This document shows positions 1 to 24,208 of a DNA stretch of 64,000 bases, piece after piece. Under the pieces are notes generated by a model. That model was not told where the DNA came from and did no database searches. It was given only the letters and a program-made list of their open reading frames with translations. Source of the DNA: a virus; IMG/VR virus record IMGVR_UViG_3300045988_176357, positions 1-64,000 of that record. One strand, given 5' to 3'. The position numbers were made by a program, and so were the translations under genes. Within the stretch, counting starts at the first letter, position 1, and the number at the start of each line of letters is the position of its first letter.

Positions 1-66
1 AGAGAAACCTGGCGGTACGTAACGAGTACCGTTGAACAGAACCTTGGTGTGTACACATCAAGACAG
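1..66 (+). ncRNA. group I intron, 3'-terminal portion (5' part lies upstream of the window)
   Basis: nt 1-53 identical to 2468-2520 (3' end of the intron at 2222-2541). The nrdD reading frame resumes right after position 66. Ends in G. Confidence 0.55.
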
Positions 67-1654
67 TGGAGGACAAGTCGTGTTTTCGTCCATTAATCTG
101 GGAACATGTGTGAAGCCTGGCGGTCGCCTTGCTACAAAGGCGCTGCTTAAGGCTATCGACGACGGCATCGGAAAGGGTGTAACGTCGTTGTTCCCAATCG
201 TAATCTTTAAGTTGAAGGAAGGAGTAACATATAGTCCACAAGACCCGAACTATGATTTGCGTCTGTACTCAGAGCGTGTGACCGCCAAGCGCATGTTCCC
301 CAACTACAGCAACCTCGACGCTCCGTACAACCTCAAGTACTACAAAGAGGGACATCCGGAGACAGAAGTTGCTTACATGGGTATGGCAGCTGGCAAGCAT
401 AAGGTACTGCTGCAAGATCCCGACATCCCAATGGAGGGATATCCGAGTGACCAGAAGGATTTTGCCATGTATCAGATGACCTTCGAAGACCTCTGGTACG
501 CAGTTGTAAAACTCGGAGGCGTTGTACGTAAGTTCGATGATACTACAGAGTACGTCGATCTGGAAGCCGATAACGTTCGCGTGGTTGCTATCTATGGAAG
601 AGAGCCCGACAAGGATTCCATGGATTACCGCGCCAGAAAACTGACACGAGTGAGAAAGATCATGCGCTGCAGCAAACCTGCACAGGGGCACACGTGGAAA
701 GACGTGTATGTGTACGGAACTGAAGACGGAAGCTACACAAGTACAGAGAAGCCTGTACGTAAAGTTCTGACGCTCACCAGCGATCATCCTCTGGCTCTTG
801 TGAAAAAAGGCAGAACACAGGTATGCGACATTCAATACGGTGTGGCTGGCGACAGCCTGCGTACGTATGATGGGTGCACGCAGGTACTGGACATCAGAGA
901 CAGCTCTTACACAGGATACGGATACGACATTGAGACTTACTCAGATATGTTCGTGCTGGACGACGTCATCAGTCACAACTGTCGTACACGTGCCATATCC
1001 AACGTCAACGGTCCTGAGATCGTCACAGACAGAGGCAACCTCAGCTTCACGACGCTGAACCTTCCAAGGTATGCCATAGAGGCATCCAGAGAAGGAACCA
1101 GTGAAGAGGAGCGCATCGAGATCTTCTTCAAGAAGCTCGACAAGTACCTTGACATTGCACGCAGACAGTTGGAGCACAGGTACAAGATCCAGTGCAACCG
1201 CAAGGTGTATAATCTGCCGTATGTCATGAAGCAGGGAGCTTACATGGGATCCGAACATCTCAGTCCTGATGACACCATACGCAAGGCCATCGAGAACGGT
1301 ACGCTGTCGTTTGGGTTTGTCGGCTTAGCGGAAGCATTGGTGGCTCTGACTGGACACGACCACACCGAAGGCGAACAATACCAGCAGTTGGGTCTGCGCA
1401 TCGTGAAGCATATGAGGGACTATGCCGACAAGCTCACTGAGGAGCAGCACATGAACTGGTCACTCATTGCTACACCTGCAGAGAGCGTGGCAGGCAAGAT
1501 GCTTCGCAAGGATCGCGCTGAGTTCGGTGTGATACCTGGCGTGACAGACAAGGACTATTATACCAACAGTAACCACGTGCCTGTATGGAGGAAGATCAGA
1601 GCTTCTGAGAAGATTCGCTTGGAAGCACCGTATCATGAGTTGACAAACGCGGGT
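67..1654 (+). CDS. nrdD: anaerobic ribonucleoside-triphosphate reductase NrdD, internal exon
   Basis: Translation carries class III RNR motifs (GNLSFTTLNLPRYA, IATPAESVAGK, DYYTNSNHVPV, LEAPY..L.NAG). Frame is open from window start. Exon ends at U1654 where similarity to E. coli NrdD (FEAPYPPLANGG|FICYGE) breaks and an intron core begins. Confidence 0.8.
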
Positions 1655-1994
1655 TGTTATATGGCTCGCTTTAAACAAGGTGAACGCAAATCAAAGCGGT
1701 GTGCAGCATAAGCTGCGCTAACGGTATCAGTTAGATAAGCACAGACGAATACGCTGACTAAGAAACGCTACGGTCCAGCAATGGATAGCAGCCGATACCG
1801 TGCCAAGTAGAAGGATACATATGATTATATGGTCTTCTAAAGGTGTAGAGACTAAAATATCTGCAGCAAACATGACAACAAACAGACGTGCTCAGATAGA
1901 GAGGAAGGACAAAGATACCTTCCGTAGTGCCTTGCTCAGCTACATAGCTGAGAAGAGATAGTCCGACACATGCTCGAAAGAGTTGAAACAAAAG
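1655..1994 (+). ncRNA. group I intron interrupting nrdD
   Basis: 340-nt insertion between in-frame NrdD segments (..LTNAG | HIAYVECEGDP aligns to E. coli ..LANGG FICYGEYPN). Contains a P7-like pair: R-like gctgactaagaaacg and S-like agagatagtcc. 5' exon ends in U, intron ends in G. Confidence 0.65.
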
Positions 1995-2221
1995 CATATA
2001 GCATACGTCGAATGTGAGGGTGACCCGAGGCAGAATCTCGATGCCCTGCATACTTTGATAAACATCATGCATGACGCAGGCGCAGGATACTTCAGTTTCA
2101 ATCATAAGATTGACACATGTACTAACTGCGGTTACAATGGCATCATTGGTGATGTTTGTCCGAGTTGCGGACAGAAAGAGACGCCAAGTCATCCATTTGT
2201 ACGTCCGAGAAGAATAACTGG
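1995..2221 (+). CDS. nrdD: NrdD exon: C-terminal Zn-ribbon and glycine-radical region
   Basis: HIAYVECEG..CTNCGY..CPSCG..VRPRRITG matches the NrdD C-terminus (CxxC..CxxC then RVCGY glycine radical loop). The frame breaks right after RRITG. Confidence 0.75.
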
Positions 2222-2541
2222 GTCTATGATGGCCCCTTCACACCGCGAGGTGTGTCGAACAAGAAAGTGAATTGCTGGGACACCTTAACGGGTCATGCCG
2301 AAGGCAATCAGCATCCGAGCCATGCGTTCGACAGAACGCCAGCGCATGGAAGGTTCATCGACTATCCCGAAAGGGAGTACCCGACAAGTGAAGGGGAAGC
2401 ACTCTGGCTCAGGAATGAGTCAATGATATAGTCAGTGCACTGCAGAAATGCAGTGAGTGGTCTCGGGAGAGAAACCTGGCGGTACGTAACGAGTACCGTT
2501 GAACAGAACCTTGGTGTGTACAACATCAAGACAGATCTTAG
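2222..2541 (+). ncRNA. group I intron interrupting the nrdD glycine-radical motif
   Basis: 320-nt insertion. Joining ..ATAACTGG to TTACGAG.. restores RRITG-YENRFNSAKTAELNARVTHA (compare NrdD RVCGYLG..RPFNAGKQEEVKRRVKH). R-like ggttcatcgactatccc and S-like aatgatatagtcagtg. About 200 nt at the 5' end are nearly identical to 9170-9420. Ends in G. Confidence 0.7.
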
Positions 2542-2605
2542 TTACGAGAACAGATTCAACTCAGCCAAGACGGCTGAGTTGAACGCAAGGGTAACACATG
2601 CCTGA
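2542..2605 (+). CDS. nrdD: NrdD terminal exon
   Basis: Encodes (G)YENRFNSAKTAELNARVTHA then stop TGA. Overlaps the nrdG start by 8 nt. Confidence 0.6.
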
Positions 2606-3137
2606 AATCAAAGTATTCGGTATCGTTGAGGAGGATGCTGTCAACTTCAACGATGGATTCGCGATGACAGTGTTCTGTCAAGGCTGCACGCATCCGAAAG
2701 GTACGCCTTTCATGGATGCTTGCGGACACTGTATAGGCTGCCACAATCCGGACACACACAGTCTGGAAGGCGGAACAGTGTACACGACAGAAAAGCTGTT
2801 CGAGCTGCTGCACGGGAATCCCGTGCATAAAGCACTGGTGTTGAGCGGCGGCGAGCCTATGGTGCAGGCTGAGGCTCTTGCGCCTTTGTGCGCAAGGGCG
2901 AAGGAGGCTGGCTACAAGGTGTGGCTGTACACAGGCTACACCTGGGAGCAGCTTCAGACAGTACCTGGATGGGCTGCCATAGCTCCGCATCTCGATGTGC
3001 TTATAGACGGTCCTTTCATAGGTTCACTTAAGAGTCACCGCCTGAAGTATCGCGGCAGCAAGAACCAGCGCATACTGAACGTACAACAGTCGCTTGCCAG
3101 AGGTAAACCTGTACTGTACAGGAAAGCTTCGGCGTAA
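2598..3137 (+). CDS. nrdG: anaerobic RNR activating enzyme (radical SAM) NrdG
   Basis: Intact ORF directly after nrdD. Cys-rich N-terminus (FCQGCTHP..CGHCIGCHN) and YTGYTWEQL motif. RBS aaggg upstream. Confidence 0.85.
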   Translation: MPEIKVFGIVEEDAVNFNDGFAMTVFCQGCTHPKGTPFMDACGHCIGCHNPDTHSLEGGTVYTTEKLFELLHGNPVHKALVLSGGEPMVQAEALAPLCARAKEAGYKVWLYTGYTWEQLQTVPGWAAIAPHLDVLIDGPFIGSLKSHRLKYRGSKNQRILNVQQSLARGKPVLYRKASA

Positions 3138-3141
3138 CCAT

Positions 3142-3176
3142 GGCCCCCTGTGAGGTAACACTTGCAGGGGGCTTTT
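3142..3176 (+). terminator. rho-independent terminator
   Basis: ggccccctg..cagggggc hairpin followed by a T-run. An identical hairpin recurs at 12925. Confidence 0.7.
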
Positions 3177-3192
3177 AATAAAGGAGAACGAA

Positions 3193-3549
3193 ATGAAAGC
3201 AGCAGAGCTTGATACAAAAGACGTCACAGTAATACGTACAGAAAAACGGTACATACTCAATGAGAGCGTGTTCGAGCTGGACGAGTGTCCTGACTGGGCT
3301 CAGTACGCAGCTGTAGATGCCGATGGGGAAGCCTACTGGTACAGCGTAAAGCCGTCGCGCGTTGAAAGCGACTGGGTTGACTTTTATGGTCGTATCCGTT
3401 TAATCCGGGATGGTGATAACCCGGTCATTTTCGATGCTACCGGCTGGCAGCACAATCTTATCGAGCGACCCAGGAAGGCACTTGAGATTACCATGTCGGA
3501 CATTGAGAGGCAGTTTGGGTGCAAAGTGAAAATTGTAAAGGAGAATTGA
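3193..3549 (+). CDS. hypothetical protein; C-terminal domain is paralogous to 5552..6187
   Basis: Intact ORF with RBS aggaga. Its C-terminal 60 aa (WAQYAAVDADGEAYW..ATGWQHNLIERPRKALEITMSDIERQFGCKVKIVKE) recur in the 5552..6187 protein. Confidence 0.6.
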   Translation: MKAAELDTKDVTVIRTEKRYILNESVFELDECPDWAQYAAVDADGEAYWYSVKPSRVESDWVDFYGRIRLIRDGDNPVIFDATGWQHNLIERPRKALEITMSDIERQFGCKVKIVKEN

Positions 3550-3550
3550 A

Positions 3551-4465
3551 GTGCGAATTCCTAAGAATAAACCTATAATAGGGTATAAGGCATTCACAAA
3601 AGACTTGCAGTGTCGCGGGTATCAGTTTGCGATCGGTAAAGAATACCACCATAAAGGTCCTATACAGCTGTGTGCCAAAGGTTTCCACTTCTGCTCATCA
3701 GTAGATAAAGTTTTCGATTTTGCTCCGTATGAACTGAATCCTCAAACAACAAGGGTATGCTCGGTCTTAGCCTGGGGAAACATGCAAGAAGACACTAGGT
3801 CAGTAAAATACGTAGCTTCCAATATCCGTGTCATCAGAGAGTTGTCGATACAGCAGATATTGTCAGCTGCAAATTTCAGTGGCAGCAATTATGGCCGGTA
3901 CAATAGCGGTTCGTTCAATTACGGCAACTATAATACAGGTCGTGAAAACCTTGGCGACGGGAATTGTGGGGTAGGTAATTACGGCAACAATAATTATGGC
4001 AGCTTTAATTGGGGCAACGGTAACAGCGGCAACCATAATTTAGGGAACCATAACACAGGTTGCTATAATTATGCCAATTTCTGTGCAGGTACCTTATGTA
4101 CAGTATCCCATTCACCTTCTACATATATGTTCAACAGGCCTTTAACACTTGATGATGACCTCCGGATGCAAAGATACGGTTTCCCGGCGTTTTTCTGTTA
4201 TGTAAAACCTGTAATTGTTATCGATCAGCGAGATGTTGCAAAGTATAGAGGGTACATCAAAATTGACGACTACACTGAAGCTTTTGATGACCTAAGCATG
4301 TTGCGTACTGTGTCTTGGGAATCCTTGTGGCGGTTTGCACTTGCGAAAGCCAAGACTGAAAGAACCTGGAAAAAGCAACTTGAACACCTGGTTAATTTGC
4401 CTAACTTCAGTTATGCAGTCTTCGAAAGTATTACAGGTATCAGTAAACAGCAAATTCTAGAATAA
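3551..4465 (+). CDS. repeat protein with YadA-head-like N(Y/N)G repeats
   Basis: Intact ORF. Central SGSNYGRYNSGSFNYGNYNTG..GNYGNNNYGSFNWGNGNSGNHNLGNHNTGCYNY repeat array. GTG start inferred. Confidence 0.55.
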   Translation: MRIPKNKPIIGYKAFTKDLQCRGYQFAIGKEYHHKGPIQLCAKGFHFCSSVDKVFDFAPYELNPQTTRVCSVLAWGNMQEDTRSVKYVASNIRVIRELSIQQILSAANFSGSNYGRYNSGSFNYGNYNTGRENLGDGNCGVGNYGNNNYGSFNWGNGNSGNHNLGNHNTGCYNYANFCAGTLCTVSHSPSTYMFNRPLTLDDDLRMQRYGFPAFFCYVKPVIVIDQRDVAKYRGYIKIDDYTEAFDDLSMLRTVSWESLWRFALAKAKTERTWKKQLEHLVNLPNFSYAVFESITGISKQQILE

Positions 4466-4478
4466 TGGAAGTGATAAA

Positions 4479-4940
4479 ATGACTGACTTTGAAAAACAAT
4501 GCTATAAAAAGTACCCTGTGTATCTGCAGGGACTGAACCCTGAAAACGAGCAGCACGATACATTTACAGGCTTCGAGTGCGGAGAAGGGTGGCACGAAAA
4601 CCTCGATAACTTCTTCGAATCGATGGAAAACCTGAACAAGATGCTCATGTTGACAGGCAACCCGGACTACTACTTTACCGCATGGCAGGTCAAGGAAAAG
4701 TATGGGATGATAAGCGTGTACGATGGTCTTGTGACTCCTGAACACGCTGATGACAAACTTGTGGACTGTCTTTCTGATTTACAGGAAGCTATTCACAGCG
4801 AACTGGACCTTGCTTGCAGACGCACCTGCGAGCACTGCGGAAAGGATACTGTGCATCTGTGCAAGACTCATGGTTACGTGCAGTACCTGTGTGAACCGTG
4901 TGCAGAAAAGACCGGGAGGGTGTATGTCCGTCTCACCTAA
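4479..4940 (+). CDS. hypothetical protein with C-terminal Cys-rich Zn-binding motif
   Basis: Intact ORF with RBS ggaag. C-terminus CRRTCEHCGKDT..CKTHGYVQYLCEPCAEK. Confidence 0.55.
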   Translation: MTDFEKQCYKKYPVYLQGLNPENEQHDTFTGFECGEGWHENLDNFFESMENLNKMLMLTGNPDYYFTAWQVKEKYGMISVYDGLVTPEHADDKLVDCLSDLQEAIHSELDLACRRTCEHCGKDTVHLCKTHGYVQYLCEPCAEKTGRVYVRLT

Positions 4941-5568
4941 GCTTATGATATGGTGTACCTGTGCCAACACAGACGATCTTCGGTATTATGACCGTGTTGT
5001 AAAGTGGTACAAGCACGTTAAATCGTTTCCAGTTGTGGCAGACTTGTATGTGTTCAACGATGGTCCTGTATCCGATGCAGGAAAGAAACACATAGCATAC
5101 GACAACAGCAACAGCGATCTGACATGGATCGAGGAGCGGGAACCTCTGGACAGGAAAAGCTCAAGAAACTTCCCCGGTTGGAGGCGCGCTTTTGCTCATG
5201 CGATGTTCGTCAGTCTGAACTATGACTACTGCTGCCATATCGAGAACGATGCTCGTATTCTCAATGTACCTGAGGTGTGCAGCTGGATGTATACGAAAGG
5301 GACGTACGCATTCTACGATCTTCATTATAACACAATCGAAAGTGCTATAATGTGTCTCAACGATGTTAACGTCAGACGTGCTTATGCGACCGTATTCAGT
5401 CAGCATGAAATGCAGCATAGTGATACGATGTTTCAGACACAGCTTGAGAACCTCATAGACTCTCCTGTAAGTATACTCAACAGTTACCGGCTGGAAGGCA
5501 GACTGCCGGAAGCATTCAGAGGAAAGAATCTGGATGCATTGTGCCAGGTAGGTGCTGATTATGACTAA
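4924..5568 (+). CDS. hypothetical protein
   Basis: Intact ORF in the same frame as track ORF 4750..5568. Start chosen at the internal ATG overlapping the upstream stop (MSVSPKLMIWCTC..). Confidence 0.45.
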   Translation: MSVSPKLMIWCTCANTDDLRYYDRVVKWYKHVKSFPVVADLYVFNDGPVSDAGKKHIAYDNSNSDLTWIEEREPLDRKSSRNFPGWRRAFAHAMFVSLNYDYCCHIENDARILNVPEVCSWMYTKGTYAFYDLHYNTIESAIMCLNDVNVRRAYATVFSQHEMQHSDTMFQTQLENLIDSPVSILNSYRLEGRLPEAFRGKNLDALCQVGADYD

Positions 5569-6187
5569 CGATTTTATTGTCCTGTGCCTGATGCTGTCTA
5601 TTTTCTTGTTCTGTGCGATAACTTATATATTGGACAGGAGATTGAAGCGTGTTGAGAAAGAAGTTGCGCAACATATAGAGTCGCAGAAACAAGCTCTTAC
5701 TGAAGCCTTCTTCAGTCTACAGTATAATTTGGAAGACTATCCTGATGTGTTTGAACCTATGTGCCTGGTGCTCAAGTCGCTGAGCTTGTCTTATCCGAAA
5801 GTAAGGGCCGAGATTGGGGACGCATATGCCAAGTGTAGATCGGAGAGGAAGCTTAACAGACAAAGTAAGACACCTCAAAAGAAAAAGTTTGCGCTTGTAC
5901 CTGTTGTCTTCAGCTTACCGGAATGTCCAAGTGATGCCAACTGGGCAGCTGTGGATGCGGATGGCAGTGCGTATTGGTTTGTTGATAAGCCGGTCATTTC
6001 CGGAAAGTGCTGGGTACGACGTCAGACAAGCTGCGCGGCAAAGTGTATTCTCCCCGAAGCCTTTGATGCTACCGACTGGCAGCACAGCCTTATCGAGCGA
6101 CCCAGGAAGGTACTTGAGATTACCATGGCTGACCTGGAACGGAAATATGGATGTAAGGTCAAGGTTGTAAAGGAGGCACAGGTGTGA
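5552..6187 (+). CDS. membrane-anchored protein with a C-terminal domain paralogous to 3193..3549
   Basis: Intact ORF. N-terminal TM helix (FIVLCLMLSIFLFCAITYIL). The C-terminal 75 aa are homologous to the C-terminus of 3193..3549. Confidence 0.55.
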   Translation: MLIMTNDFIVLCLMLSIFLFCAITYILDRRLKRVEKEVAQHIESQKQALTEAFFSLQYNLEDYPDVFEPMCLVLKSLSLSYPKVRAEIGDAYAKCRSERKLNRQSKTPQKKKFALVPVVFSLPECPSDANWAAVDADGSAYWFVDKPVISGKCWVRRQTSCAAKCILPEAFDATDWQHSLIERPRKVLEITMADLERKYGCKVKVVKEAQV

Positions 6188-6402
6188 ATTACATATTAGG
6201 CGTATTATTGCAGCTTGCCGGAGTCTGCTGGTGCGCTTTTATAGTCTGTCGCATTATTCACGATGTCATGACAGATGGAAAAGAACTTAATGCCGCCTGT
6301 CATGAAGCTACAAAAGAGCTTGCGTATCCCGCAGTCCTGTTTGCTATCTCTTTGCTGTATCTTATTATATGCGCTGTATCTGATGTAATAAAACACATGT
6401 AA
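6184..6402 (+). CDS. small membrane protein
   Basis: Intact 72-codon ORF with two hydrophobic segments. Start overlaps the upstream stop. Confidence 0.4.
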   Translation: MNYILGVLLQLAGVCWCAFIVCRIIHDVMTDGKELNAACHEATKELAYPAVLFAISLLYLIICAVSDVIKHM

Positions 6403-6413
6403 AGGAAACTGCA

Positions 6414-6593
6414 ATGAAACTTCTATATATAGGAATACCGTTGCTGATATGGACAATGTCAGCTGTCGGTATCCTGATATGTACTTACCTTAACTCAAAC
6501 AAGAACGCCGGACTTGAAAGATTCTTCTGGGGGTCGGGTATAACATCAGGTCTGTTGCTTGGTATGGGAGTAATAGCTACAAAGTTATTCTAA
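6414..6593 (+). CDS. small membrane protein
   Basis: ATG after RBS aaagga. Product MKLLYIGIPLLIWTMSAVGILICTYL.. has two TM helices. Confidence 0.4.
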   Translation: MKLLYIGIPLLIWTMSAVGILICTYLNSNKNAGLERFFWGSGITSGLLLGMGVIATKLF

Positions 6594-6603
6594 GAGAATA
6601 AAG

Positions 6604-7758
6604 ATGCTGAACCGTGAACTGTACAACAGACTTCGCACTGTGTTCAAAGATGTTCATGTGCAGTACGAGAATGTACAGCCCAAACTGAGACTGTTGCGAT
6701 GGCCGAGGCTGATCAACGGACAGCTGCGTGAGTGGGAATTCGACAGCAGAGGTTCAGGGGAGACGTACCAAATCAACTGTCCTGTATGCGGCGACAAGAA
6801 GGGGCACTGCTATATCTCGGCACTGTCTTTTACCAAGCCTCGTATAGGCGACCGCATCCTCACACCTGCACCTTTGCTCATACACTGTTTCAGGCGCAAC
6901 TGCTTCAGCGGTAATCCGGAAGCCAGGGAAGCTCTCACGCAGGTCCTCAAGTCCAGTACACCAATGGAACTTGATGTCGGCGAAGAGGATTGCTTCTCAG
7001 GTGCGCAGGAGCTGCAGCAGGACATACACAGGAACACAGAGGCGAACCTGCTTAAATGGCAGCCCGATTATCATCCCATAGATCATGATGCTCCTGCAGA
7101 GGTGCTTGACTATGTAGCCAAGCGCGGCATACAGGAACGTGACATCAAGGAACTCAAGATAGGGTGGGGTCGGTGCTGGAACTACAAAAAACAGAACTTC
7201 ATAGGCAACGGTAACTGGTTGCAGTTTCCTATCATCGATCAGGCCGGTCTCAGAGGCTTCCAGTCACGCCAGCTGCACAGCGACGGCAACCTGAAGTACT
7301 TCTTCGACACCAGAACACCCAAGAAGATGTGCCTATACAACAGAGAGCGTGCATCCAGCTTCCATATCGTAGCCATAGCCGAAGGCATCATCGATGCGCT
7401 CCATATAGGTCGCTGCGGCATGGCGTTCTTTGGGTTCGAGCCGAGTAAGGCACAGGTGCGTCTTCTGCAGCAGGACGGTGCGAAGCTGGTACTCTACATA
7501 CCAGACCAGAAGAAGCATTATACACCTGACGGTGTCTGTGACCTCGATCCGCCAAAGATAGCGGACACACACATAGAGCAGTGGCGCAGACAGCACCTGT
7601 TCGAGTGGGGCTGCTACAGAATCGATGTGCCGAGAGCTGATGCAGGGGAATGCACAACGGCGGAGATATGGGACGCCGTAGTGAAGCAGCTTGCCTACAA
7701 GTACAAGGTCGACGACTGCGTACTCGAAGTTCTGTTTAAACAACTGGAAAGAATATGA
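6604..7758 (+). CDS. DNA primase (Zn-finger plus TOPRIM, DnaG-like)
   Basis: CPVCGDKKGHCYIS..CFRRNC zinc finger and TOPRIM-like VAIAEGIIDALHIG. Confidence 0.7.
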   Translation: MLNRELYNRLRTVFKDVHVQYENVQPKLRLLRWPRLINGQLREWEFDSRGSGETYQINCPVCGDKKGHCYISALSFTKPRIGDRILTPAPLLIHCFRRNCFSGNPEAREALTQVLKSSTPMELDVGEEDCFSGAQELQQDIHRNTEANLLKWQPDYHPIDHDAPAEVLDYVAKRGIQERDIKELKIGWGRCWNYKKQNFIGNGNWLQFPIIDQAGLRGFQSRQLHSDGNLKYFFDTRTPKKMCLYNRERASSFHIVAIAEGIIDALHIGRCGMAFFGFEPSKAQVRLLQQDGAKLVLYIPDQKKHYTPDGVCDLDPPKIADTHIEQWRRQHLFEWGCYRIDVPRADAGECTTAEIWDAVVKQLAYKYKVDDCVLEVLFKQLERI

Positions 7759-7770
7759 AAGGAACATTAT

Positions 7771-9159
7771 GTGGCAAATTTAGCAACAATACAAAAGATA
7801 GCGAAAGTACGTGAGATCGACTCCACCAAGCGTGACATATGTGAATTGCGGTTCGAGGATTCCCTGTGGCATGTCGTAGGACAAAAGAACACATATAGTA
7901 TCGGGCAGCGTGTCGTCTTTTTCGCTCCTGGCAGTGTGATTCCAAAGGACACGGAAGCTTATAAGCACTTATGTGACTTTGTACGCAGTAACGCGAAAGG
8001 AATGGAAGTCACAGACGACTGCATTCATGTACACGCCTCGTCTGTAGGCATCAAGCATAAGACACACGGTCTGGTGCTTCCGCTTTCCTTGTTCCCTGAG
8101 CTGAAGAAGATGCCTGTTCGGTCAGATGTCACAGATCGGATCGGTGTTATTTCAGAGCGAGCGCTTAACACGAACGTAATTTGTGCCTCGCCTGATCTCG
8201 TTAAGCTGCCTCAGCCTGACTGGATACCTGCACGCAAGTTTGTCGACTTACGTGATCGTCCGGAAATGTTCGGCAGGTGCCAGCACTCGCGTTTCTATGG
8301 CGAGCTTATGGTCGACGGCAGCATTCCTGTTGCCGTGTACTGTGTAAGCGACAAATATGATGCGGATCGGTTTGGCGTCTGTGTCTTCGGCAACAAGATC
8401 AAGCGCCCAAGGTATTCGCAGGCAGAGATTAAGCGACTTCTGTATCAGCAGCCAAAAAAAGAACGGGGCTGTTTGCTGTCCCTGTGGGAATTGGCTGCGC
8501 ACTGCTGTCAAAGTCTGTGGCACTGGGCTACACATACCGATCAGGAGCTGCAGAAAGAACGGGACGAACAACAGCAGGAAGTGGACGATCTGGAACTTAT
8601 GCTGTTTGAGCGCAACGATCTGTGGAACACAATTGAGATCGAGAACATTGAACCAGCATTGAGCGAGTGGCAGCGCCGTACAGGGCGCAGCATAGTAGTC
8701 TTCTTCGAGTGGGTAGGACCTGACATACAAGGTAACCCGGAACGATATCCAGACCACAGACTGTATGCCAGTGATGTGTACGACTTGGATGGACAGAAGT
8801 GGCTGCTGCCCAAAGAACGTGAACTGTTCCTCGACGGTATCAGCAAACGGATACGCCAGGTAGTCAAGTGCTACCATGACTATCCCTTTGCAGGCAGCAG
8901 TGTTGACTCGACAATAGGTCTTGTAGCGGATATCTGCAATAACCGCAACACAGGGAAAAAGGGCATAATATTCAAGAGCTCGCAGGAACCTTATATGACT
9001 TTCAAGGTGCTCAGCGATCTGTACGGCAAGAAAACCAAAACGAGACTCAGCAAGGCAGCAACAGCCAATGACTACTTTGCTGCGCAGGAACGAAAGAGAA
9101 AGGAAAAGCAGGAAAGGTATCAAAAAGCGTATCCGCAGGCGAGACAGCCTGCAATGTGA
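7771..9159 (+). CDS. hypothetical protein (462 aa)
   Basis: Intact ORF with RBS. Lys/Glu-rich C-terminus. Ends with TGA exactly where the IStron-like element begins. Confidence 0.6.
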   Translation: MANLATIQKIAKVREIDSTKRDICELRFEDSLWHVVGQKNTYSIGQRVVFFAPGSVIPKDTEAYKHLCDFVRSNAKGMEVTDDCIHVHASSVGIKHKTHGLVLPLSLFPELKKMPVRSDVTDRIGVISERALNTNVICASPDLVKLPQPDWIPARKFVDLRDRPEMFGRCQHSRFYGELMVDGSIPVAVYCVSDKYDADRFGVCVFGNKIKRPRYSQAEIKRLLYQQPKKERGCLLSLWELAAHCCQSLWHWATHTDQELQKERDEQQQEVDDLELMLFERNDLWNTIEIENIEPALSEWQRRTGRSIVVFFEWVGPDIQGNPERYPDHRLYASDVYDLDGQKWLLPKERELFLDGISKRIRQVVKCYHDYPFAGSSVDSTIGLVADICNNRNTGKKGIIFKSSQEPYMTFKVLSDLYGKKTKTRLSKAATANDYFAAQERKRKEKQERYQKAYPQARQPAM

Positions 9160-9502
9160 TGCGCTTAAAGGTACCTTCACACCGCGAGGTGTGTCGAATA
9201 AGAAAGTGAATTGCTGGGACACCTTAACGGGTAATGCCGAAGGCAATCAGCAGCCGAGCTTATGGATGCCCGGACCGGGTGCCATAGGAAGGTTCATCGA
9301 CTATCCCGTAATGGGAGTACCCGAGCAGCCTTGCAGCGATAGCAGCAGAAGCAAGGGGAAGCACTCTGGCTCAGGAATGAGTCAATGATATAGTCAGTGC
9401 CTTGTGGAAACACAAGGAGTGGTCAGGAGTGACACCCTGAAACCTGGCAAGGTTTGGTACACCTTGCTGAACAGAACCATGGTAGTTAACACATCGACAA
9501 TG
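9160..9502 (+). ncRNA. group I intron moiety of the IStron-like element
   Basis: 9170-9420 is a near copy (point substitutions only) of nrdD intron 2230-2460, including R (ggttcatcgactatccc) and S (aatgatatagtcagtg) elements. The 3' part is diverged but shares aacctggc..gaacagaacc..acatc.aca. Confidence 0.65.
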
Positions 9503-9571
9503 AAATTGCGAACAATTACTTGAACTTTTAATATACATGCGTATATTATATGCGTACAAACAAGAGGTTCC

Positions 9572-10702
9572 ATGATAGCAAGCAGAGCACACAAGATAAA
9601 ACTCATGCCGACGCCTGAGCAGCAGGAGAAACTCCGCAGGAGATTTCTCCAAGGACAGGCGGTAAGGCACTTGTGCATCGAGTGGAGCTGTGAAATGTAC
9701 GCAGCCTGGAAACAGGACCCTGCGAACAATGCTTACCCATCATATGAAGCGATGGATAAGCGGTACACAAAGGAGAAGCCCGAGGAGGGCAACCTCCTTC
9801 CAAGGTGTTCAGCGCAGCGTAAGGTGCGCGACACCTGGAAGGCAGTGGAAAACCACATCAAGCACCCTGATAAGTACGCATGTCCGGATTACACCAAGAA
9901 GCGTGATGTACATGAGTACACGCTTTATGTGAACAATCAAGCGGCAGAAGTGGGCACAGATCACGGTAAGCCTTATGTTCACTTTCCAAAGCTCGGACTT
10001 ATTCGGCTCGCCGAGGAGTTCCGCTTCAAAGGTGCACGCATAATGTCGTACACCTTTTCGTGGGATTGTGTGGACATGTATGTGTCCATACAAGCGCAAG
10101 TTGAGGTTACTCCGATGTGCACCAACGACTCCACAGTTGGAGTCGATGTGGGTCTCAAGCACATTGCGGTCGCCTCAGATGGCACCACACTCGACTACCC
10201 GAAGGCGTACAAGAAGGCGCAGAAGCGTGTACGCGCGGAGCAGCGTAAGCTGCAGCGCAAAGTTCAAGACAGCAACAATTACTGGAAGCAGTACAGGCGT
10301 CTCAAAAAGGCGTACAAGAGAAAGGCGAACGTTATTAACGACGCCTTACATAAGTACACCACACGGCTATGCAAGACGCACAGCACAGTCGTCACAGAGA
10401 ACCTCAGTATTGCAGACCTTATCAAGACGTCCGAGAAGTGGATGCGAAGAGGCTTCGCCTTGTCCCAGATGAAGCGACTGATTCAGCTGCTTCAGTACAA
10501 GGCTGCCATCTACCGGCAGGTAGAACGATTCTTCGCGAGCAGCAAAACTTGTTCCCGCTGCGGCTACAAGAACAATGCGCTCACACTTGCGGATCGTACT
10601 TATGTGTGCCCCGAATGCGGCCTCCAGATAGACCGTGACCTCAATGCGGCGCACAATACACGCAATTTCATTGTAGGGTCGGTCAGACCCGATCTCCGGT
10701 AA
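9572..10702 (+). CDS. tnpB: IS200/IS605-family TnpB (RuvC-like RNA-guided nuclease, OrfB)
   Basis: 376-aa ORF. C-terminal Zn-finger and RuvC-III region CSRCGYKNNALTLADRTYVCPECGLQIDRDLNAAHN. Upstream RBS aagagg. Confidence 0.85.
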   Translation: MIASRAHKIKLMPTPEQQEKLRRRFLQGQAVRHLCIEWSCEMYAAWKQDPANNAYPSYEAMDKRYTKEKPEEGNLLPRCSAQRKVRDTWKAVENHIKHPDKYACPDYTKKRDVHEYTLYVNNQAAEVGTDHGKPYVHFPKLGLIRLAEEFRFKGARIMSYTFSWDCVDMYVSIQAQVEVTPMCTNDSTVGVDVGLKHIAVASDGTTLDYPKAYKKAQKRVRAEQRKLQRKVQDSNNYWKQYRRLKKAYKRKANVINDALHKYTTRLCKTHSTVVTENLSIADLIKTSEKWMRRGFALSQMKRLIQLLQYKAAIYRQVERFFASSKTCSRCGYKNNALTLADRTYVCPECGLQIDRDLNAAHNTRNFIVGSVRPDLR

Positions 10703-10738
10703 CGGAGGTAGCTCTTCCCTCTTTGAGGGTGAGAAGAT

Positions 10739-11035
10739 ATGCGGTACCTCCCCGGTACCGACTATCATGACAGTATGATAACAGTCGTATGTCCTAAGTG
10801 CAAAAGAGAGAATACGATGTGCGTATGTATGTCCAATGCCGAATGCTATGTACCCATTCTTGGAATCCAGGATGACGGTACTGTTGAATACGGCTGTACT
10901 GATATCAACGAGGGCGATAACGTCGCCTACGAATGCAGTGAATGCGGCTACAGACTTCGTATCAAACCCGATGCCTTTGACGACAAGTTTGTGGCATGGG
11001 CAAAGAAGCAGCAACAGAAAAGGGAAAAGAAATGA
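10739..11035 (+). CDS. small Zn-ribbon protein
   Basis: Intact ORF with CPKC..CSECGY motifs. Confidence 0.5.
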   Translation: MRYLPGTDYHDSMITVVCPKCKRENTMCVCMSNAECYVPILGIQDDGTVEYGCTDINEGDNVAYECSECGYRLRIKPDAFDDKFVAWAKKQQQKREKK

Positions 11036-12828: not shown

Positions 12829-12924
12829 GCACTGCGGCAAGGTGTATGGCGTAGAGCCGTATGCAGGGCAGTACATTGTGAAATGCACTAATCCTAAGTG
12901 CAAATCACAGAACAAGTGAACTAT

Positions 12925-12960
12925 GGCCCCCTGTGAGGTAACACTTGCAGGGGGCTTTTT
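12925..12960 (+). terminator. rho-independent terminator (same hairpin as at 3142)
   Basis: ggccccctgtgaggtaacacttgcagggggc followed by a T-run. Confidence 0.7.
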
Positions 12961-16604: not shown

Positions 16605-16682
16605 GGGACCGTAGCTTAGTCGGTTAGCAGCTGCTGACTCATACTCAGCCGGCCGCAGGTTCGAGCCCTGCCGGTCCCACCA
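16605..16682 (+). tRNA. tRNA-Met (anticodon CAT; elongator Met or Ile-lysidine type)
   Basis: Cloverleaf: acceptor GGGACCG/CGGTCCC, D-arm GCTT..AGC, anticodon stem GCTGA/TCAGC with loop CTCATAC, T-arm GCAGG TTCGAGC CCTGC. Encoded CCA. G1-C72 argues against an initiator. Confidence 0.85.
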
Positions 16683-22174: not shown

Positions 22175-22381
22175 AATTAAAGCTGTTTGACATTACAGTA
22201 TATACAGTACGATATACGTAACATCTCATGCATATAACGTATGTGCACACGTCCGGCAGGACAAGGCATCAGTGTGTACACGCATGAGAAGCACAATAAG
22301 GGTACAAATACGCGGAGCGTATCAGTACACTGGAGTGCCTGATCTGTGGCACTTTCTAGCGGCACATCCGAGGATACCACT

Positions 22382-23974
22382 ATGCGGGACTTATGGAATA
22401 CAGGCACCGAAGACTCTCCAATACTGCAGGGACAGGCAGGGAAACCCTTTTATCACTAGAAAGGTCCAAAGCTCAAGTTTCCCGACAACCCGGACAACAT
22501 CGTCGATAACAGCTGCTACTGCAGATATCCTTATATGCGCTATTTTTGGATCTACGCGAAAGTAGACTAGCAGACCCAGCAGCTGGACTTCTTCAGATTG
22601 TCCTTTCCTCAGGAAGCTCAGCAGGGCGACTGGTATGCGAACTACAGCATACAGCGTGCATAGGGCTGGCAGTGGGAAGTCATATAGCAGTACCACTATG
22701 CAGGGTGCGCAGCTCACAGAACCGATGTCGGCATATGGCAGACAGTACCTCTGTTCCCCTATGCCCAGCAGTGCGATGACGAGGACGACGAATAGATACC
22801 GATAAGCAACCTCACCTTCCCTAGCCCCTTGTATATAGGCTCCAAAGATGAGACCACAACTCAAGGGGGGCAACAGGTTGACACTCCATGCAGGAAGAAC
22901 ACAGGACCTGCTTCCCTTATGCGAATGCTTGTCTGTTCCTACAAGTGCTGCAACAATGTGCAGGGCTGCGGAACATAGGTAACCAATGACGACGATCCTC
23001 TGATCTGTCCTCCTGCAGGCAACTTCTGTTAGGCGTAGTTCAACGTCTCCTGGGAATATGACAAAGATGGCGCACAGAAGTTCTCATATGTGTCCATGCC
23101 ACTTAATGTGACATGCGGCTAGTGTCACCATCCCTAGCGCACAGATATCCTTTCCTGCACAACAGCCAGAATAAGGCTCTTCGGATAGCGCCTTGCTTTA
23201 GATGACTACAGCGTGTAGTCATGTGAGTAGTGCTGCAGGAAACTTAGGGACAGGGTGCTGTAGATGAAACCTCCTGTTGTGGACTGCAGAATATACAGGC
23301 TGTACGAATACCCAAAGGTGCCGCATGAAGATCCCGAAATAGGATGCACATGGGGAGAACCTGTTCTTGTATAGACTGCATAGGACTGGGCGCGTGTTCC
23401 ATATCAGATAGTCGGCAAGGGAGACGGCTGCCTTCCGCAGGGAGCGCATCAGCTGGACTATGTTCTCATATGCGACCAGACGAGCATGCAGGTAGTGGCA
23501 TATCAGTGGGTATAGTCAGCCGATTGCAATACCTAGCCCGATCCTCCGACAGACGGTCCTGTAGGATAGAGCACAAAAGGAACATAGTGCGACTGCGAGC
23601 CTATGCAGCAGGGCCAGTTCTTCCTTGATTAGGGATCGACACACGGTGACCGCAGCAATGAAGACCCTCCGTGCAACATTCCCGATGCTCCTCCATACAA
23701 GTACAGAAAGCTCAGCTCCAGCTGGCCTGCTCCATAGTTCGAACATACTCCGTTCGAGATCTACAGAGTCCGCCTTATAACGGACGGAGGCACAGGCTCC
23801 AACTAGAAGAGCTGCGGCATGTACCAGATGTAGACCGATGACAGCGGAAACATTCAGTGGCAGCGTGTCGCCAGTCACATGTACGACTATTAGATACTGT
23901 AGAACGGGTACATGGACAAGCTGGAGACGAGGTTCACATAGGAATAGGGTTCTTCTTATTATTACACTATAGTA
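22382..23974 (+). CDS. Cys-rich protein (TAG-recoded, about 35 in-frame TAG)
   Basis: Frame 2 is free of TAA/TGA from TGA 22340 to TAA 23972. First ATG is at 22382. Traced by coordinates. Confidence 0.5.
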
Positions 23975-24208
23975 AGGCAGGGCTGTGAGCCATAGGTGAA
24001 CTAGCAGGACAAGAGCCCGTTCGGCGACGACTGGCTGTAGGGACCTGCGGACAAGAACTGTTCCACATACTTCGCAACATACTGGAATCCGCAGGACGAC
24101 TGCAGCGGCAACACATAGAACCCGCCGCACACCACCGGCTGCACCAAATGGGACAGGCTCGGTCCGTTCAACTTCTCTCAGCTGAGTTCCCTCGGTCTGA
24201 TACCCGAC

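What the first reader, a model, noticed from the sequence alone, without database searches (positions are those of the whole stretch)
1..2605. nrdD is split by at least three group I introns; two share ends with each other and with the IStron intron
The NrdD reading frame is interrupted at 1654/1995 and at 2221/2542, and it resumes at about 67 after an intron whose 3' end is cut by the window edge. Splicing restores conserved NrdD sequence, including the glycine-radical motif RRITG-Y. The insertions carry group I R/S consensus blocks, the exon ends at 1654 with U and the introns end with G. Intron 1 (3' end only) and intron 3 have identical 3' terminal sequence over at least 53 nt. Intron 3 and the IStron intron share about 200 nt at their 5' ends. 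This points to recent intron mobility within one genome. Placement of an intron inside the glycine-radical loop codon block is notable. The last exon overlaps nrdG by 8 nt.
Basis: partly seen in the sequence, partly recalled or inferred. Interest (0 to 1): 0.75.

Follow-up and report, generated by a model that had tools for sequence, protein, structure and literature searches.

The report
Phage nrdD: three introns, one intein
A gut-phage gene for anaerobic ribonucleotide reductase is interrupted by three self-splicing group I introns and also by a protein-level intein; two of the introns are sister copies related to a transposon-carrying intron nearby, a rich but not unprecedented example of selfish elements piling into one essential gene.

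Summary
nrdD (window 1-2605, + strand) carries three group I introns.

**Junctions.** Alignment with an uninterrupted homologue fixes them:
- Intron 1 ends at 66.
- Intron 2 is 1655-1994.
- Intron 3 is 2224-2534, not 2222-2541. This restores RRITG-YLSYENRF.

**Intein.** A 199-aa intein (383-979) sits just before the catalytic cysteine. It starts with Met, not Cys.

**Full gene.** A contig 100% identical to the window supplies the missing 5' part. Intron 1 is 313 nt and is a full-length paralogue of intron 3 (86% identity, same guide sequence). It splices after a C rather than the usual U.

**Relationship to the IStron.** Both paralogues are relatives of the ribozyme of a true IStron, which I delimit at 9121-10773.

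**Intron 2.** It is a version, lacking its endonuclease gene, of an HNH-endonuclease intron found at the same site in a relative.

**Function.** Related phages carry these elements in many combinations. The spliced coding sequence differs from the uninterrupted allele at 106 synonymous and 7 non-synonymous codons, so the gene is functional.

**Novelty.** Multi-intron, intein-bearing phage RNR genes are already known. This is a new member of a known kind with some unusual details.

The parts
1..66 (+). 3' end of intron 1. The whole intron is 313 nt and is seen complete in the identical contig at L227:3157-3469. It ends with the terminal G at position 66.
   Evidence: blastn against intronless L004 puts the exon start at 67. 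L227 is 100% identical to window 1-9137. L227 3148-3391 matches RF00028 at 46.7 bits, E 6e-10.
67..382 (+). nrdD exon 2, first part (N-extein side): ...A|GGQVVFSSINLG...EVAYMG.
   Evidence: Aligns to L004 nrdD nt 945-1259 at 98%. Pfam NRDD and PDB 8p23 alignments.
383..979 (+). In-frame mini-intein of 199 aa, MAAGKHK...VISHN. It is inserted between the Gly and the catalytic Cys of the NrdD 'MGC' loop. Residue 1 is Met, block B reads TSDH, the C-terminus is HN, and the +1 residue is Cys.
   Evidence: Absent from P0002 and P0003 (AYMG|CRTRA), and replaced by a LAGLIDADG intein in P0015 and P0017. Homologous to Cys1 inteins at the same site that carry PF14890. AF2 model pLDDT 86.6. The top 40 Foldseek PDB hits are all inteins or HINT domains, best E 3e-7.
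980..1654 (+). nrdD exon 2, second part (C-extein side): CRTRAISNVNG...HELTNAG. It ends with U1654.
   Evidence: Aligns to L004 nt 1261-1935. PDB 8p23 alignment.
1655..1994 (+). Intron 2, 340 nt, with no ORF.
- P1: 1649-1654 with 1664-1669, including the U1654-G1664 wobble.
- P10: 1658-1663 with 1995-2000.
- P3: 1676-1682 with 1928-1934.
- P7: 1850-1854 with 1959-1963.
- Terminal G: 1994.
   Evidence: Exact excision is shown by L004. It is 89-91% identical to the two flanks of the HNH/NUMOD4-ORF intron at the same site in L007. Family core found in 75 of 119 IMG/VR hits. P3 covariation. P4, P5 and P5b pairs. RF00028 gives only 19 bits, E 0.1.
1995..2223 (+). nrdD exon 3: HIAYVECEG...CTNCGYNGIIGDVCPSCG...RPRRITG plus the first base of the Tyr codon. 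It ends with U2223.
   Evidence: Aligns to L004 nt 1936-2164 at 98%.
2224..2534 (+). Intron 3, 311 nt, with no ORF.
- P1: 2220-2223 with 2232-2235, including the U2223-G2232 wobble.
- P10: 2224-2230 with 2535-2541.
- P7: 2360-2364 with 2429-2433.
- Terminal G: 2534.
   Evidence: L004 alignment. RF00028 40.3 bits, E 4e-8. Consensus fold with compensatory changes. The exon and guide sequence co-vary in L007: GGCU with GGCC (alignment).
2535..2605 (+). nrdD exon 4: (Y)LSYENRFNSAKTAELNARVTHA plus the TGA stop.
   Evidence: Aligns to L004 nt 2165-2235 at 100%. Matches homologues.
2598..3137 (+). nrdG (activase). It overlaps nrdD by 8 nt.
   Evidence: ORF list. Pfam Fer4_12 at E 6e-29.
9121..10773 (+). 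IStron, 1653 nt.
- The ribozyme part (9121-9502) is homologous to introns 1 and 3.
- tnpB lies at 9572-10702.
- P1: 9114-9120 with 9171-9177, including the U9120-G9171 wobble.
- 3' splice site after G10773.
   Evidence: RF00028 54.1 bits, above the gathering score. Pfam OrfB_IS605 and Cas12f1-like_TNB. The empty allele in L226 joins ...AAAGGTAC|TATGATAAC....

Best explanation
nrdD of this gut phage is a functional gene that needs four self-removal steps.

**Proposed pathway**
1. The gene is transcribed as one pre-mRNA together with nrdG.
2. Three group I ribozymes excise themselves by the usual two transesterifications. These are intron 1 (313 nt, of which only the last 66 nt lie in the window), intron 2 (1655-1994) and intron 3 (2224-2534).
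3. Excision joins GC|U (Ala, phase 2), GGU|CAU (Gly|His, phase 0) and U|AU (the Tyr that follows the radical Gly, phase 1).
4. The 943-aa product then loses a 199-aa intein. This re-forms the MG-C active-site loop and gives a 744-aa NrdD.

**Relationships among the elements**
- Introns 1 and 3 have no ORF. They are paralogues with the same internal guide sequence (GGCCCC) and sit at two GGGY sites.
- Both belong to the same ribozyme family as the IStron at 9121-10773.
- Intron 2 is an unrelated intron that has lost the HNH endonuclease gene still present in a relative.

**Shown here**
- The exact junctions.
- The ribozyme folds, supported by covariation.
- The paralogy.
- The presence/absence polymorphism.
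- Purifying selection on the spliced product.

**Inferred**
- That splicing occurs in vivo.
- That intron 1 arose by ectopic insertion of an intron-3-like copy. Reverse splicing guided by the 4-5 nt P1 pairing is the simplest route.
- That the Met1 intein splices by direct attack of Cys+1 (the class 2 route).
For: **Junctions**
- blastn against intronless L004 defines them.
- Uninterrupted proteins P0002 and P0003 read ...SRAGGQ......NAGHIAY... and ...RRITGYLSYENRF....
- The PDB 8p23 alignment is continuous across junctions 2 and 3.

**Full gene**
- L227 is 100% identical to window 1-9137 and has an uninterrupted exon 1.
- The spliced CDS is 2832 nt with a single terminal stop. Without the intein it is 744 aa.
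- It differs from L004 at 117 nt, in 106 synonymous and 7 non-synonymous codons.

**Ribozymes**
- RF00028 scores are 54.1 bits (IStron), 46.7 (intron 1) and 40.3 (intron 3).
- RNAalifold on seven copies gives 80 pairs, 38 of them with compensatory changes, in P2, P5, P6, P7.2, P8, P9, P9.1 and P9.2.
- The exon and guide sequence co-vary in P1 (alignment).
- For the intron 2 family, 26 of 40 distinct sequences pair 8 of 8 in P3, against 3.7 expected by chance. They use 29 different strand sequences.
- P4, P5 and P5b are supported.
- Intron 2 has perfect 6-bp P1 and 6-bp P10 pairings, read directly from the sequence.

**Paralogy**
- Intron 1 against intron 3 gives 273 identities in 319 aligned columns. 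The ends are nearly identical and the P6, P8 and P9 stems are compensated.

**Mobility**
- The occupancy mosaic spans L004, L001-3, L005, L006, L007/8, L226 and L235.

**Intein**
Against: - No RNA or protein data were available, so splicing is inferred.
- None of the three nrdD introns reaches the Rfam gathering score. Intron 2 scores only 19 bits.
- The intron 2 family has two hairpins between the P3 5' strand and P4. I could not match this layout to a named subgroup.
- Intron 1 has a C-G pair instead of the near-universal U-G wobble at the 5' splice site. From my memory of work on the Tetrahymena ribozyme, this substitution slows 5' cleavage.
- Intron 1 shows no convincing P10.
- The intein lacks an N-terminal nucleophile. 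No Pfam or PDB sequence match was obtained for it.
- The route by which introns 1 and 3 became paralogues at two sites is not established by anything here.
Confidence: 0.85

Rival explanations
1. Intron 1 is a crippled ectopic copy. Because its 5' splice site is a C-G pair rather than a U-G wobble, it splices poorly or not at all. On this view nrdD in this phage is non-functional, or is made only at low level.
For: C at -1 is unambiguous in three lineages: L001, L003 and L227. All other family copies have U-G (alignment). No P10 could be drawn for intron 1.
Against: - The intron-1-bearing allele shows strong purifying selection over all exons, with 106 synonymous against 7 non-synonymous codon differences.
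- Intron 1 keeps every core helix, with compensatory changes relative to intron 3.
- It is retained in at least three diverged lineages.
- The C is the second base of a conserved Ala codon, so it cannot change to U without altering the protein.
- A 5' splice site after a non-U base has been shown experimentally for group B IStrons (PMC4227781).
Confidence: 0.1
2. nrdD is a decaying pseudogene, and the inserts are dead remnants of mobile elements.
For: There are four interruptions in one gene. No endonuclease ORFs are left in this genome's introns. The Rfam scores are below the gathering threshold.
Against: - No frameshift or internal stop occurs in any exon.
- The ratio of synonymous to non-synonymous codon differences against the intact allele is 106:7.
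- The ribozyme helices are maintained by compensatory substitutions.
- The intein catalytic residues (TxxH, HN, Cys+1) are invariant across 31 sequences.
- nrdG is intact and overlaps nrdD for coupled translation.
Confidence: 0.04
3. The gene is genuinely split, and the pieces are translated separately and assemble, as in Aeromonas phage Aeh1 nrdA. No RNA splicing is needed.
For: Gene callers annotate separate NRDD fragments in all public contigs. A split but functional phage RNR is documented (PMC3653736).
Against: - Exon 4 would encode 23 residues, and exon 3 would encode 76 residues. Neither has its own ATG or a ribosome-binding site at the junction.
- The breaks fall inside codons (phases 2 and 1).
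- The inserts have ribozyme architecture, with guide sequences complementary to both flanking exons.
Confidence: 0.03
4. The repeated intron ends are an assembly artefact. The contig would then be chimeric at a repeat.
For: The window starts exactly inside the repeat shared with intron 3. It is the start of a public contig, since L229 has the same coordinates.
Against: - An independent contig from another sample (L227, 141.5 kb) reads through intron 1 and is 100% identical over 9137 nt.
- The same architecture appears in L232 and L234.
- Intron 1 is also seen in L001-L003.
- The contig break at the repeat explains only why the window starts there.
Confidence: 0.02

Closest known systems
Phage T4 nrdD (sunY) group IA intron with I-TevII
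   Same: [quoted passage not shown] It is variably present among relatives, and it lies in the conserved segment just upstream of the GQxxF motif.
   Different: T4 has one intron of 1033 nt with a GIY-YIG endonuclease, inserted at GAGU|AUGAA in Tyr180. That site is about 9 codons upstream of site 1 here. None of the three sites in this phage coincides with it, and none of the three introns here has an ORF.
Multi-intron, intein-bearing phage RNR genes: Brochothrix phage A9 nrdE (three introns plus an intein), Twort nrdE, SPbeta nrdE/F, Lactococcus phage 949 nrdD, and Jug gut phages (nrdD in four fragments)
   Same: Several group I introns and an intein sit together in one ribonucleotide reductase gene at conserved, functionally critical sites. 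For Jug phages, metatranscriptome reads confirm splicing (PMC3653736, PMC12880540).
   Different: - The host phage lineage here is different, because it reads TAG as a sense codon in late genes. Jug phages are reported to use the standard code.
- Two of the three introns are paralogues of each other and of an IStron in the same genome.
- One intron splices after C.
- I did not compare insertion sites with the Jug phage genomes.
IStrons (CdISt1, BcISt1 and others; group IA2 ribozyme fused to an IS200/IS605 or IS607 element) and their ORF-less derivatives
   Same: - The element at 9121-10773 has the defining layout: ribozyme at the 5' end, tnpB at the 3' end, and precise excision of the whole unit.
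- Introns 1 and 3 look like the ribozyme without the IS part.
- ORF-less copies, and solo introns with IStron-like ends, are described in PMC4227781.
- Introns 1 and 3 sit at GG-containing target sites, and intron 1 has a non-U 5' splice site. Both are features of group B IStrons.
   Different: - Introns 1 and 3 lack the hairpin in the P1 loop (9121-9170 in the IStron) and the whole IS segment.
- No tnpA is present in the IStron copy in the window.
- The direction of descent is unknown: a solo intron may have captured an IS, or an IStron may have lost it.
Class 2 (KlbA-type) inteins
   Same: - There is no N-terminal Cys, Ser or Thr.
- There is no Trp/Cys/Thr triplet: block B position 12 is Leu and block F position 4 is Asp.
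- Cys is at +1, the block B Thr and His are kept, and the C-terminus is His-Asn (class definitions from PMC2807308).
- The only intein-like PDB sequence hit, although weak, is Mja KlbA 2jmz at E 1.1.
   Different: - Residue 1 is Met, not Ala.
- The host protein is a phage NrdD, not archaeal KlbA.
- Its closest relatives are ordinary Cys1 inteins at the same NrdD site, so the loss of Cys1 appears to be independent.
- Splicing has not been tested.

Membership tests
Group I intron (introns 1 and 3, and the IStron ribozyme) | Match to the curated covariance model RF00028 at its gathering score. | tested here: inconclusive
   The IStron ribozyme scores 54.1 bits, above the gathering score of 50. 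Intron 1 scores 46.7 bits at E 6e-10. Intron 3 scores 40.3 bits at E 4e-8. The last two are significant but below the curated cut-off.
Group I intron (introns 1 and 3, and the IStron ribozyme) | Conserved core helices P3-P9, including the P3/P7 pseudoknot, supported by covariation. | tested here: met
   RNAalifold on 7 copies gives 80 pairs, 38 with compensatory changes. The predicted helices include P2, P4, P5, P6, P7, P7.1, P7.2, P8, P9, P9.1 and P9.2. P3 (AGAAAGUG with CACUCU) comes from the Rfam alignment. It varies only by wobble-compatible changes in L007 and L208 (alignment).
Group I intron (introns 1 and 3, and the IStron ribozyme) | P1 formed between the 5' exon and an internal guide sequence, with a U-G wobble at the 5' splice site, and a terminal G at the 3' end. 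| tested here: inconclusive
   - Intron 3: GGGU with GCCC, wobble U2223-G2232, terminal G2534.
- IStron: AAGGUAU with GUACCUU, wobble U9120-G9171, terminal G10773.
- Exon and guide co-vary in L007, L164 and L208 (alignment).
- Intron 1: same guide sequence and a terminal G, but C-G instead of U-G.
Group I intron (intron 2) | Match to RF00028. | tested here: not met
   19 bits, E 0.1. No family member among 17 loci reaches the gathering score.
Group I intron (intron 2) | P1 with a U-G wobble, P10 with the 3' exon, a terminal G, and exact in-frame excision. | tested here: met
   - P1: GCGGGU (1649-1654) with GCUCGC (1664-1669), including U1654-G1664.
- P10: UAUAUG (1658-1663) with CAUAUA (1995-2000).
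- Terminal G: 1994.
- Excision is exact against L004.
Group I intron (intron 2) | P3/P7 pseudoknot and P4-P6 domain, with R and S consensus elements. | tested here: met
   - P3: 26 of 40 distinct family sequences pair 8 of 8, against 3.7 expected. There are 29 different strand sequences.
- P7: GACUA with UAGUC, invariant across the family.
- P4, P5 and P5b, some with covariation.
- The endonuclease ORF sits in the P6 loop in L007 and in phage G.
- Caveat: two extra hairpins lie between P3 and P4.
Group I intron (all three) | Guanosine-dependent self-splicing of the transcript. | not testable with these tools
   This needs in-vitro transcription with GTP labelling, or RT-PCR. The only support here is indirect: purifying selection on the spliced product.
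IStron (element at 9121-10773) | A group I ribozyme at the 5' end fused to an IS200/IS605- or IS607-type ORF, with the whole unit bounded by the splice sites. | tested here: met
   RF00028 is above the gathering score. TnpB domains OrfB_IS605 and Cas12f1-like_TNB are present. The empty allele L226 defines a 1653-nt insertion whose removal restores ...QERYYDNSRMS*.
IStron (introns 1 and 3) | Presence of an IS component (transposase or TnpB ORF, and IS ends). | tested here: not met
   Introns of 313 and 311 nt have no ORF. They lack the hairpin in the P1 loop and the segment 9503-10761. They are relatives of an IStron ribozyme, not IStrons.
Intein (insert 383-979) | HINT fold, block B TxxH, C-terminal His-Asn, a nucleophile at +1, and in-frame insertion at a conserved site of the host protein. 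| tested here: met
   - AF2 model pLDDT 86.6. Foldseek PDB top hits are all inteins or HINT domains, for example 2lqm at E 3e-7.
- T132, H135, H198, N199 and C200 are invariant in 31 sequences.
- Absent from P0002, with exact restoration of AYMG-CRTRA.
Intein (insert 383-979) | An N-terminal Cys, Ser or Thr nucleophile (class 1). | tested here: not met
   Residue 1 is Met in the window and in P0001, P0004-P0014 and P0024. More distant homologues at the same site have Cys1. By its sequence signature the intein is class-2-like. Splicing is untested.

The most novel reading that the evidence does not exclude
Introns 1 and 3 may be non-autonomous members of an IStron-derived ribozyme family that spreads inside recoded gut-phage genomes without any endonuclease of its own.

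The proposal is that new sites are chosen by the 4-5 nt guide sequence. The route would be reverse splicing, or recombination helped by the TnpB of the resident IStron. This could place a copy at a site that cannot offer the canonical U-G wobble, here C(-1), which is fixed by an Ala codon.

Separately, the clade of NrdD inteins that begin with Met would be a new, phage-borne lineage of class 2 inteins. In that lineage the catalytic thiyl-radical cysteine of the enzyme would double as the only splicing nucleophile.
Probability: 0.3. Interest if true: 0.65.

Novelty: new member of a known kind. Interest (0 to 1): 0.45.

Why it matters
It gives an exactly delimited natural example in which three ribozymes and an intein must all act to make one essential enzyme. 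The elements sit at the sites of both radical-bearing residues: the intein at the thiyl Cys and intron 3 beside the radical Gly.

The set of related contigs forms a natural series of empty and filled sites. This is ready-made material for studying several questions:
- How introns without an endonuclease move.
- How an intron tolerates a C-G pair at its 5' splice site.
- How IStrons and solo introns interconvert.
- Whether an intein starting with Met can splice.

Practically, gene callers split this nrdD into two to four 'genes' plus a spurious antisense ORF in every public contig. The junctions given here allow correct annotation.

Tried and rejected
- **Rfam at gathering threshold.** It finds only the IStron ribozyme in the window, and nothing in 17 loci of the intron 2 family. 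I therefore relied on E-value searches and my own covariation analysis.
- **blastn of 1-3200 against GenBank phages.** No close relative was found. The only short intron-core hits were in Bacillus phage G and Pseudoalteromonas phage HP1.
- **First model of intron 2 P3 (GCGCUA with UAGUC-proximal UAGUGC).** Rejected. The family does not conserve it, and RNAalifold pairs that GC with the strand after P4'. The CAAGGUG/UGCCUUG pairing covaries.
- **Rfam's P1 for the IStron (AAGCGUAUC with GAUGCGCUU) and my first guess of a 3' splice site at G9502.** That guess would have created a TAA stop. Both were rejected after comparison with the empty allele L226. That hairpin lies inside the P1 loop, and the real splice sites are U9120 and G10773.
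Rejected.
- **Pfam and PDB sequence searches with the intein alone.** Neither gave a significant hit. Fold prediction was needed.
- **The 15-mer and 16-mer scans of IMG/VR.** These include chance hits. 44 of 119 hits and 58 of 96 hits were discarded after checking for flanking homology.
- **The idea that T4's nrdD intron shares a site with one of these.** Rejected.
Full report
**What is in the sequence**

The long ORF at 32-1711, the ORF at 1983-2270 and the frame ending at 2605 all match NrdD. Pfam NRDD gives E 6e-121 on the joined product. PDB 8p23 (Prevotella copri NrdD) gives E 3e-115, with an alignment that runs straight across the proposed junctions.

A protein search found very close relatives with different architectures. 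P0002 (744 aa, 94% identity) is a full-length NrdD with no interruption. Its contig L004 served as the reference. blastn of that intronless gene against the window gives four collinear blocks:

| Window | L004 nrdD reference |
|---|---|
| 67-381 | 945-1259 |
| 980-1654 | 1261-1935 |
| 1995-2223 | 1936-2164 |
| 2535-2605 | 2165-2235 |

This fixes the elements as follows:
- Intron 1 ends at 66.
- An in-frame insert lies at 383-979.
- Intron 2 is 1655-1994 (340 nt).
- Intron 3 is 2224-2534 (311 nt).

Most points hold.
- The break at 1654/1995 is exact. The exon ends in U and the intron ends in G.
- The restart at 67 is exact.
- 1-55 is identical to 2468-2522.
- The 8-nt nrdD/nrdG overlap is real.

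The intron-3 coordinates 2221/2542 are wrong.
- They would give RRITG-YENRF. P0001, P0002 and P0003 read RRITGYLSYENRF, and PDB 8p23 reads RITGYLVGTTDRWNSGK.
- The correct 5' splice site follows U2223 (ACU GGG U|CUAUGAU...).
- The correct 3' splice site follows G2534 (...CAAGACAG|AUCUUAG). This position is homologous to the end of intron 1 (...CAAGACAG|UGGAGG).
- The intron therefore lies one nucleotide past the radical-glycine codon, inside the following Tyr codon.

**The part outside the window**

- The nrdG protein of the window is encoded on 18 public contigs.
- L229 is 100% identical to the window with identical coordinates. The window is therefore the start of a 192-kb human-gut contig, which begins inside the sequence repeated between introns 1 and 3. 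That is a likely assembly break.
- L227 comes from another sample. It is 100% identical to window 1-9137 and extends 3.4 kb upstream.
- In L227, exon 1 (L227 2213-3156) is uninterrupted.
- Intron 1 is L227 3157-3469 (313 nt). It matches RF00028 at 46.7 bits, E 6e-10.
- This genome therefore has exactly three introns in nrdD.

**Are they group I introns?**

*Introns 1 and 3, and the intron at 9121*

- RF00028 scores are 46.7, 40.3 and 54.1 bits against a gathering score of 50.
- Seven copies from four genomes fold into a common structure of 80 pairs. 38 of these pairs show changes on both sides that keep the pair. The predicted helices include P2, P4, P5, P6, P7, P7.1, P7.2, P8, P9, P9.1 and P9.2.
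- P1 co-varies with the exon. It is GGGU/GCCC in the window, GGCU/GGCC in L007, GCGGU/GCCGC in L164 and GCUAU/GUAGC in L208 (alignment).

*Intron 2*

- It scores only 19 bits (E 0.1), so I tested it independently.
- It has a 6-bp P1 (GCGGGU with GCUCGC, including U1654-G1664).
- Directly adjacent is a perfect 6-bp P10 (UAUAUG with the 3' exon CAUAUA). Together these form a textbook internal guide sequence.
- A 15-mer from its core recovered 119 IMG/VR loci, of which 75 share the P4-P6 core.
- In 40 distinct family members, the 8 nt before a conserved AAC pair with the 8 nt just before P8. Pairing is perfect in 26 cases against 3.7 expected, using 29 different sequences. This is P3.
- With the invariant GACUA/UAGUC (P7), it forms the group I pseudoknot. 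P4, P5 and P5b are also supported.
- The family is not captured by RF00028, and it has two hairpins between P3 and P4.
- A member with an endonuclease gene sits in the DnaE-like polymerase gene of Bacillus phage G.

**Relationships and mobility**

- Intron 1 (L227) and intron 3 (window) share 273 identities in 319 aligned columns. The first ~110 nt and the last ~85 nt are nearly identical. P6, P8 and P9 differ by compensated changes.
- Both have the guide sequence GGCCCC and sit at GGGY sites: CAGGGC| and CUGGGU|.
- Intron 1 follows a C. This is unambiguous from the intronless sequence AGGGCTGGAGG and is the same in L001, L003 and L227. The C is the second base of a conserved Ala codon.
- Intron 2 is 89-91% identical to the two flanks of an intron at the same site in L007. 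That intron carries an HNH_3/NUMOD4 ORF. The window copy has lost the ORF.

Occupancy differs among relatives:

| Contig(s) | Elements in nrdD |
|---|---|
| L004 | none |
| L001, L002, L003 | intron 1 only |
| L235 / P0001 | mini-intein, with introns 2 and 3 absent; site 1 not determined |
| L005 | a different 1.2-kb intron 4 nt downstream of site 1, plus the mini-intein |
| L006 | intron 1, a LAGLIDADG intein and intron 2 |
| L007, L008 | mini-intein, intron 2 with its HEG, and intron 3 |
| L226 | introns 2 and 3, plus a further HNH-containing insertion near nt 434-505 |

This mosaic is the classical signature of mobile introns and inteins.

**The IStron**

- Comparison with the empty allele in L226 (...AAAGGTAC|TATGATAAC...) delimits a 1653-nt element at 9121-10773.
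- Its P1 is AAGGUAU (9114-9120) with GUACCUU (9171-9177). That strand occupies the position homologous to the GGCCCC guide of introns 1 and 3.
- The hairpin that Rfam took for P1 lies in the P1 loop.
- tnpB (9572-10702) lies between the ribozyme part and the last ~70 nt.
- The element ends ...AUCAUGACAG|, compared with ...AUCAAGACAG| in the solo introns.
- Excision restores ...QERYYDNSRMS*, as in L226.
Introns 1 and 3 correspond to that ribozyme without the IS part.

**The missed intein**

- Positions 383-979 encode 199 aa inserted between the G and the C of AYMG|CRTRA. That Cys is the NrdD active-site cysteine (T4 C290, from my own knowledge).
- Relatives have nothing there (P0002), a LAGLIDADG intein (P0015, P0017), or homologous mini-inteins.
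- In a 31-sequence alignment, the block B Thr and His, the terminal His-Asn and Cys+1 are invariant.
- The first residue is Met in the window's clade and Cys in more distant members that carry Pfam Intein_splicing.
- Sequence searches with the insert alone found nothing significant.
- The AlphaFold model (pLDDT 86.6) matches only inteins and HINT domains in the PDB (best E 3e-7).
- It lacks the Trp/Cys/Thr triplet. By the published definition (PMC2807308) it is therefore class-2-like.

**Is the gene functional?**

- Joining the exons of L227 gives 2832 nt with one terminal stop (943 aa).
- Without the intein, the product is 744 aa, the length of P0002.
- Against L004 there are 117 nucleotide differences, in 106 synonymous and 7 non-synonymous codons.
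- This is strong evidence that the spliced, intein-free protein is under selection. All four elements are therefore removed.

**Comparison with what is known**

- The T4 nrdD intron lies at GAGU|AUGAA (Tyr180), about 9 codons upstream of site 1. None of the three sites here is the T4 site.
- Multiple introns and inteins in phage RNR genes are well documented. Examples are Brochothrix A9 nrdE, Twort, SPbeta and Lactococcus 949 nrdD (PMC3653736). More than 100 introns and about 80 inteins are curated in RNRdb (PMC2795772). Jug gut phages have nrdD in four fragments, with metatranscriptomic support (PMC12880540).
- ORF-less IStron derivatives, and 5' splice sites after a non-U base, are described for IStrons (PMC4227781).
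- The finding is therefore a new member of a known kind. Its unusual details are the pair of paralogous introns without ORFs in one gene, the C-G 5' splice site, the kinship with a resident IStron, and the Met1 intein.

Noticed in passing
window 383-979: A 199-aa mini-intein sits immediately before the catalytic Cys of NrdD and begins with Met instead of Cys, Ser or Ala. Met1 is conserved in the whole clade. The insert has a HINT fold and is class-2-like by sequence signature.
   Followed up: yes
window ~22000-60000, + strand (for example ORF 22343-28543): TAG is read as a sense codon in the late or structural region. One frame of 2066 codons holds 97 in-frame TAGs. The total length of stop-to-stop frames of at least 150 codons doubles when TAG is read through. 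The nrdD/nrdG region has none. The only tRNA found is tRNA-Met(CAT) at 16605-16682.
   Followed up: partly
window 9121-10773: The IStron is delimited exactly by an empty allele (L226). The 5' splice site follows U9120 and the 3' splice site follows G10773. A hairpin at 9121-9170 lies inside the P1 loop. The Rfam alignment mistakes that hairpin for P1. The downstream Zn-ribbon gene probably starts at ATG 10775, not 10739.
   Followed up: yes
L005 3724-4931: The 98%-identical relative has a different 1.2-kb intron only 4 nt downstream of site 1 (GGT|GGA). Its LAGLIDADG/HTH-type ORF contains 17 in-frame TAG codons. The endonuclease would therefore be translatable only when TAG is decoded, while the host gene nrdD uses the standard code.
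   Followed up: partly
L226 2649-3621: A further insertion of about 970 nt with an HNH_3 ORF lies in nrdD between reference nt 434 and 505. This is a fifth insertion site in this gene family.
   Followed up: no
L228 3664-4121: At the intein site this relative has an insertion of 457 nt, which is not a multiple of three. This is unexplained. It could be a decayed intein or a different element.
   Followed up: no
window 1-55 / contig start: The window is the first 64 kb of a public 192-kb contig (L229 has identical coordinates). That contig starts inside the sequence repeated between introns 1 and 3, so the assembly probably broke at the repeat.
   Followed up: yes
window 1758-2192, - strand: A 144-aa antisense ORF spanning intron 2 and exon 3 is called as a gene in every public contig. 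It has no Pfam hit and is probably spurious.
   Followed up: no
window 3136-3176 and 12919-12959: A 41-nt GC-rich hairpin followed by a T-run (AACCATGGCCCCCTGTGAGGTAACACTTGCAGGGGGCTTTT) sits right after nrdG and is repeated at 98% identity 9.8 kb downstream. It is probably a shared intrinsic terminator.
   Followed up: no
window 36230-37100 and 45115-45790: Diverged direct repeats encode collagen-like Gly-X-Y tracts that contain in-frame TAG (for example GGA TAG AAG GGC).
   Followed up: no
IMG/VR loci L011-L129; L009 (Bacillus phage G 241.5-242.7 kb): The intron 2 family is widespread in phage contigs: 75 copies were recovered from one 15-mer seed. It often carries an endonuclease ORF in P6. 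It has two hairpins between P3 and P4 and never reaches the Rfam gathering score for RF00028.
   Followed up: partly
L140, L157, L164 (IMGVR_UViG_3300045988_177579, 95 kb): One more distant phage contig carries at least three or four copies of the intron 1/3 ribozyme family at different places. This suggests proliferation within a genome.
   Followed up: no
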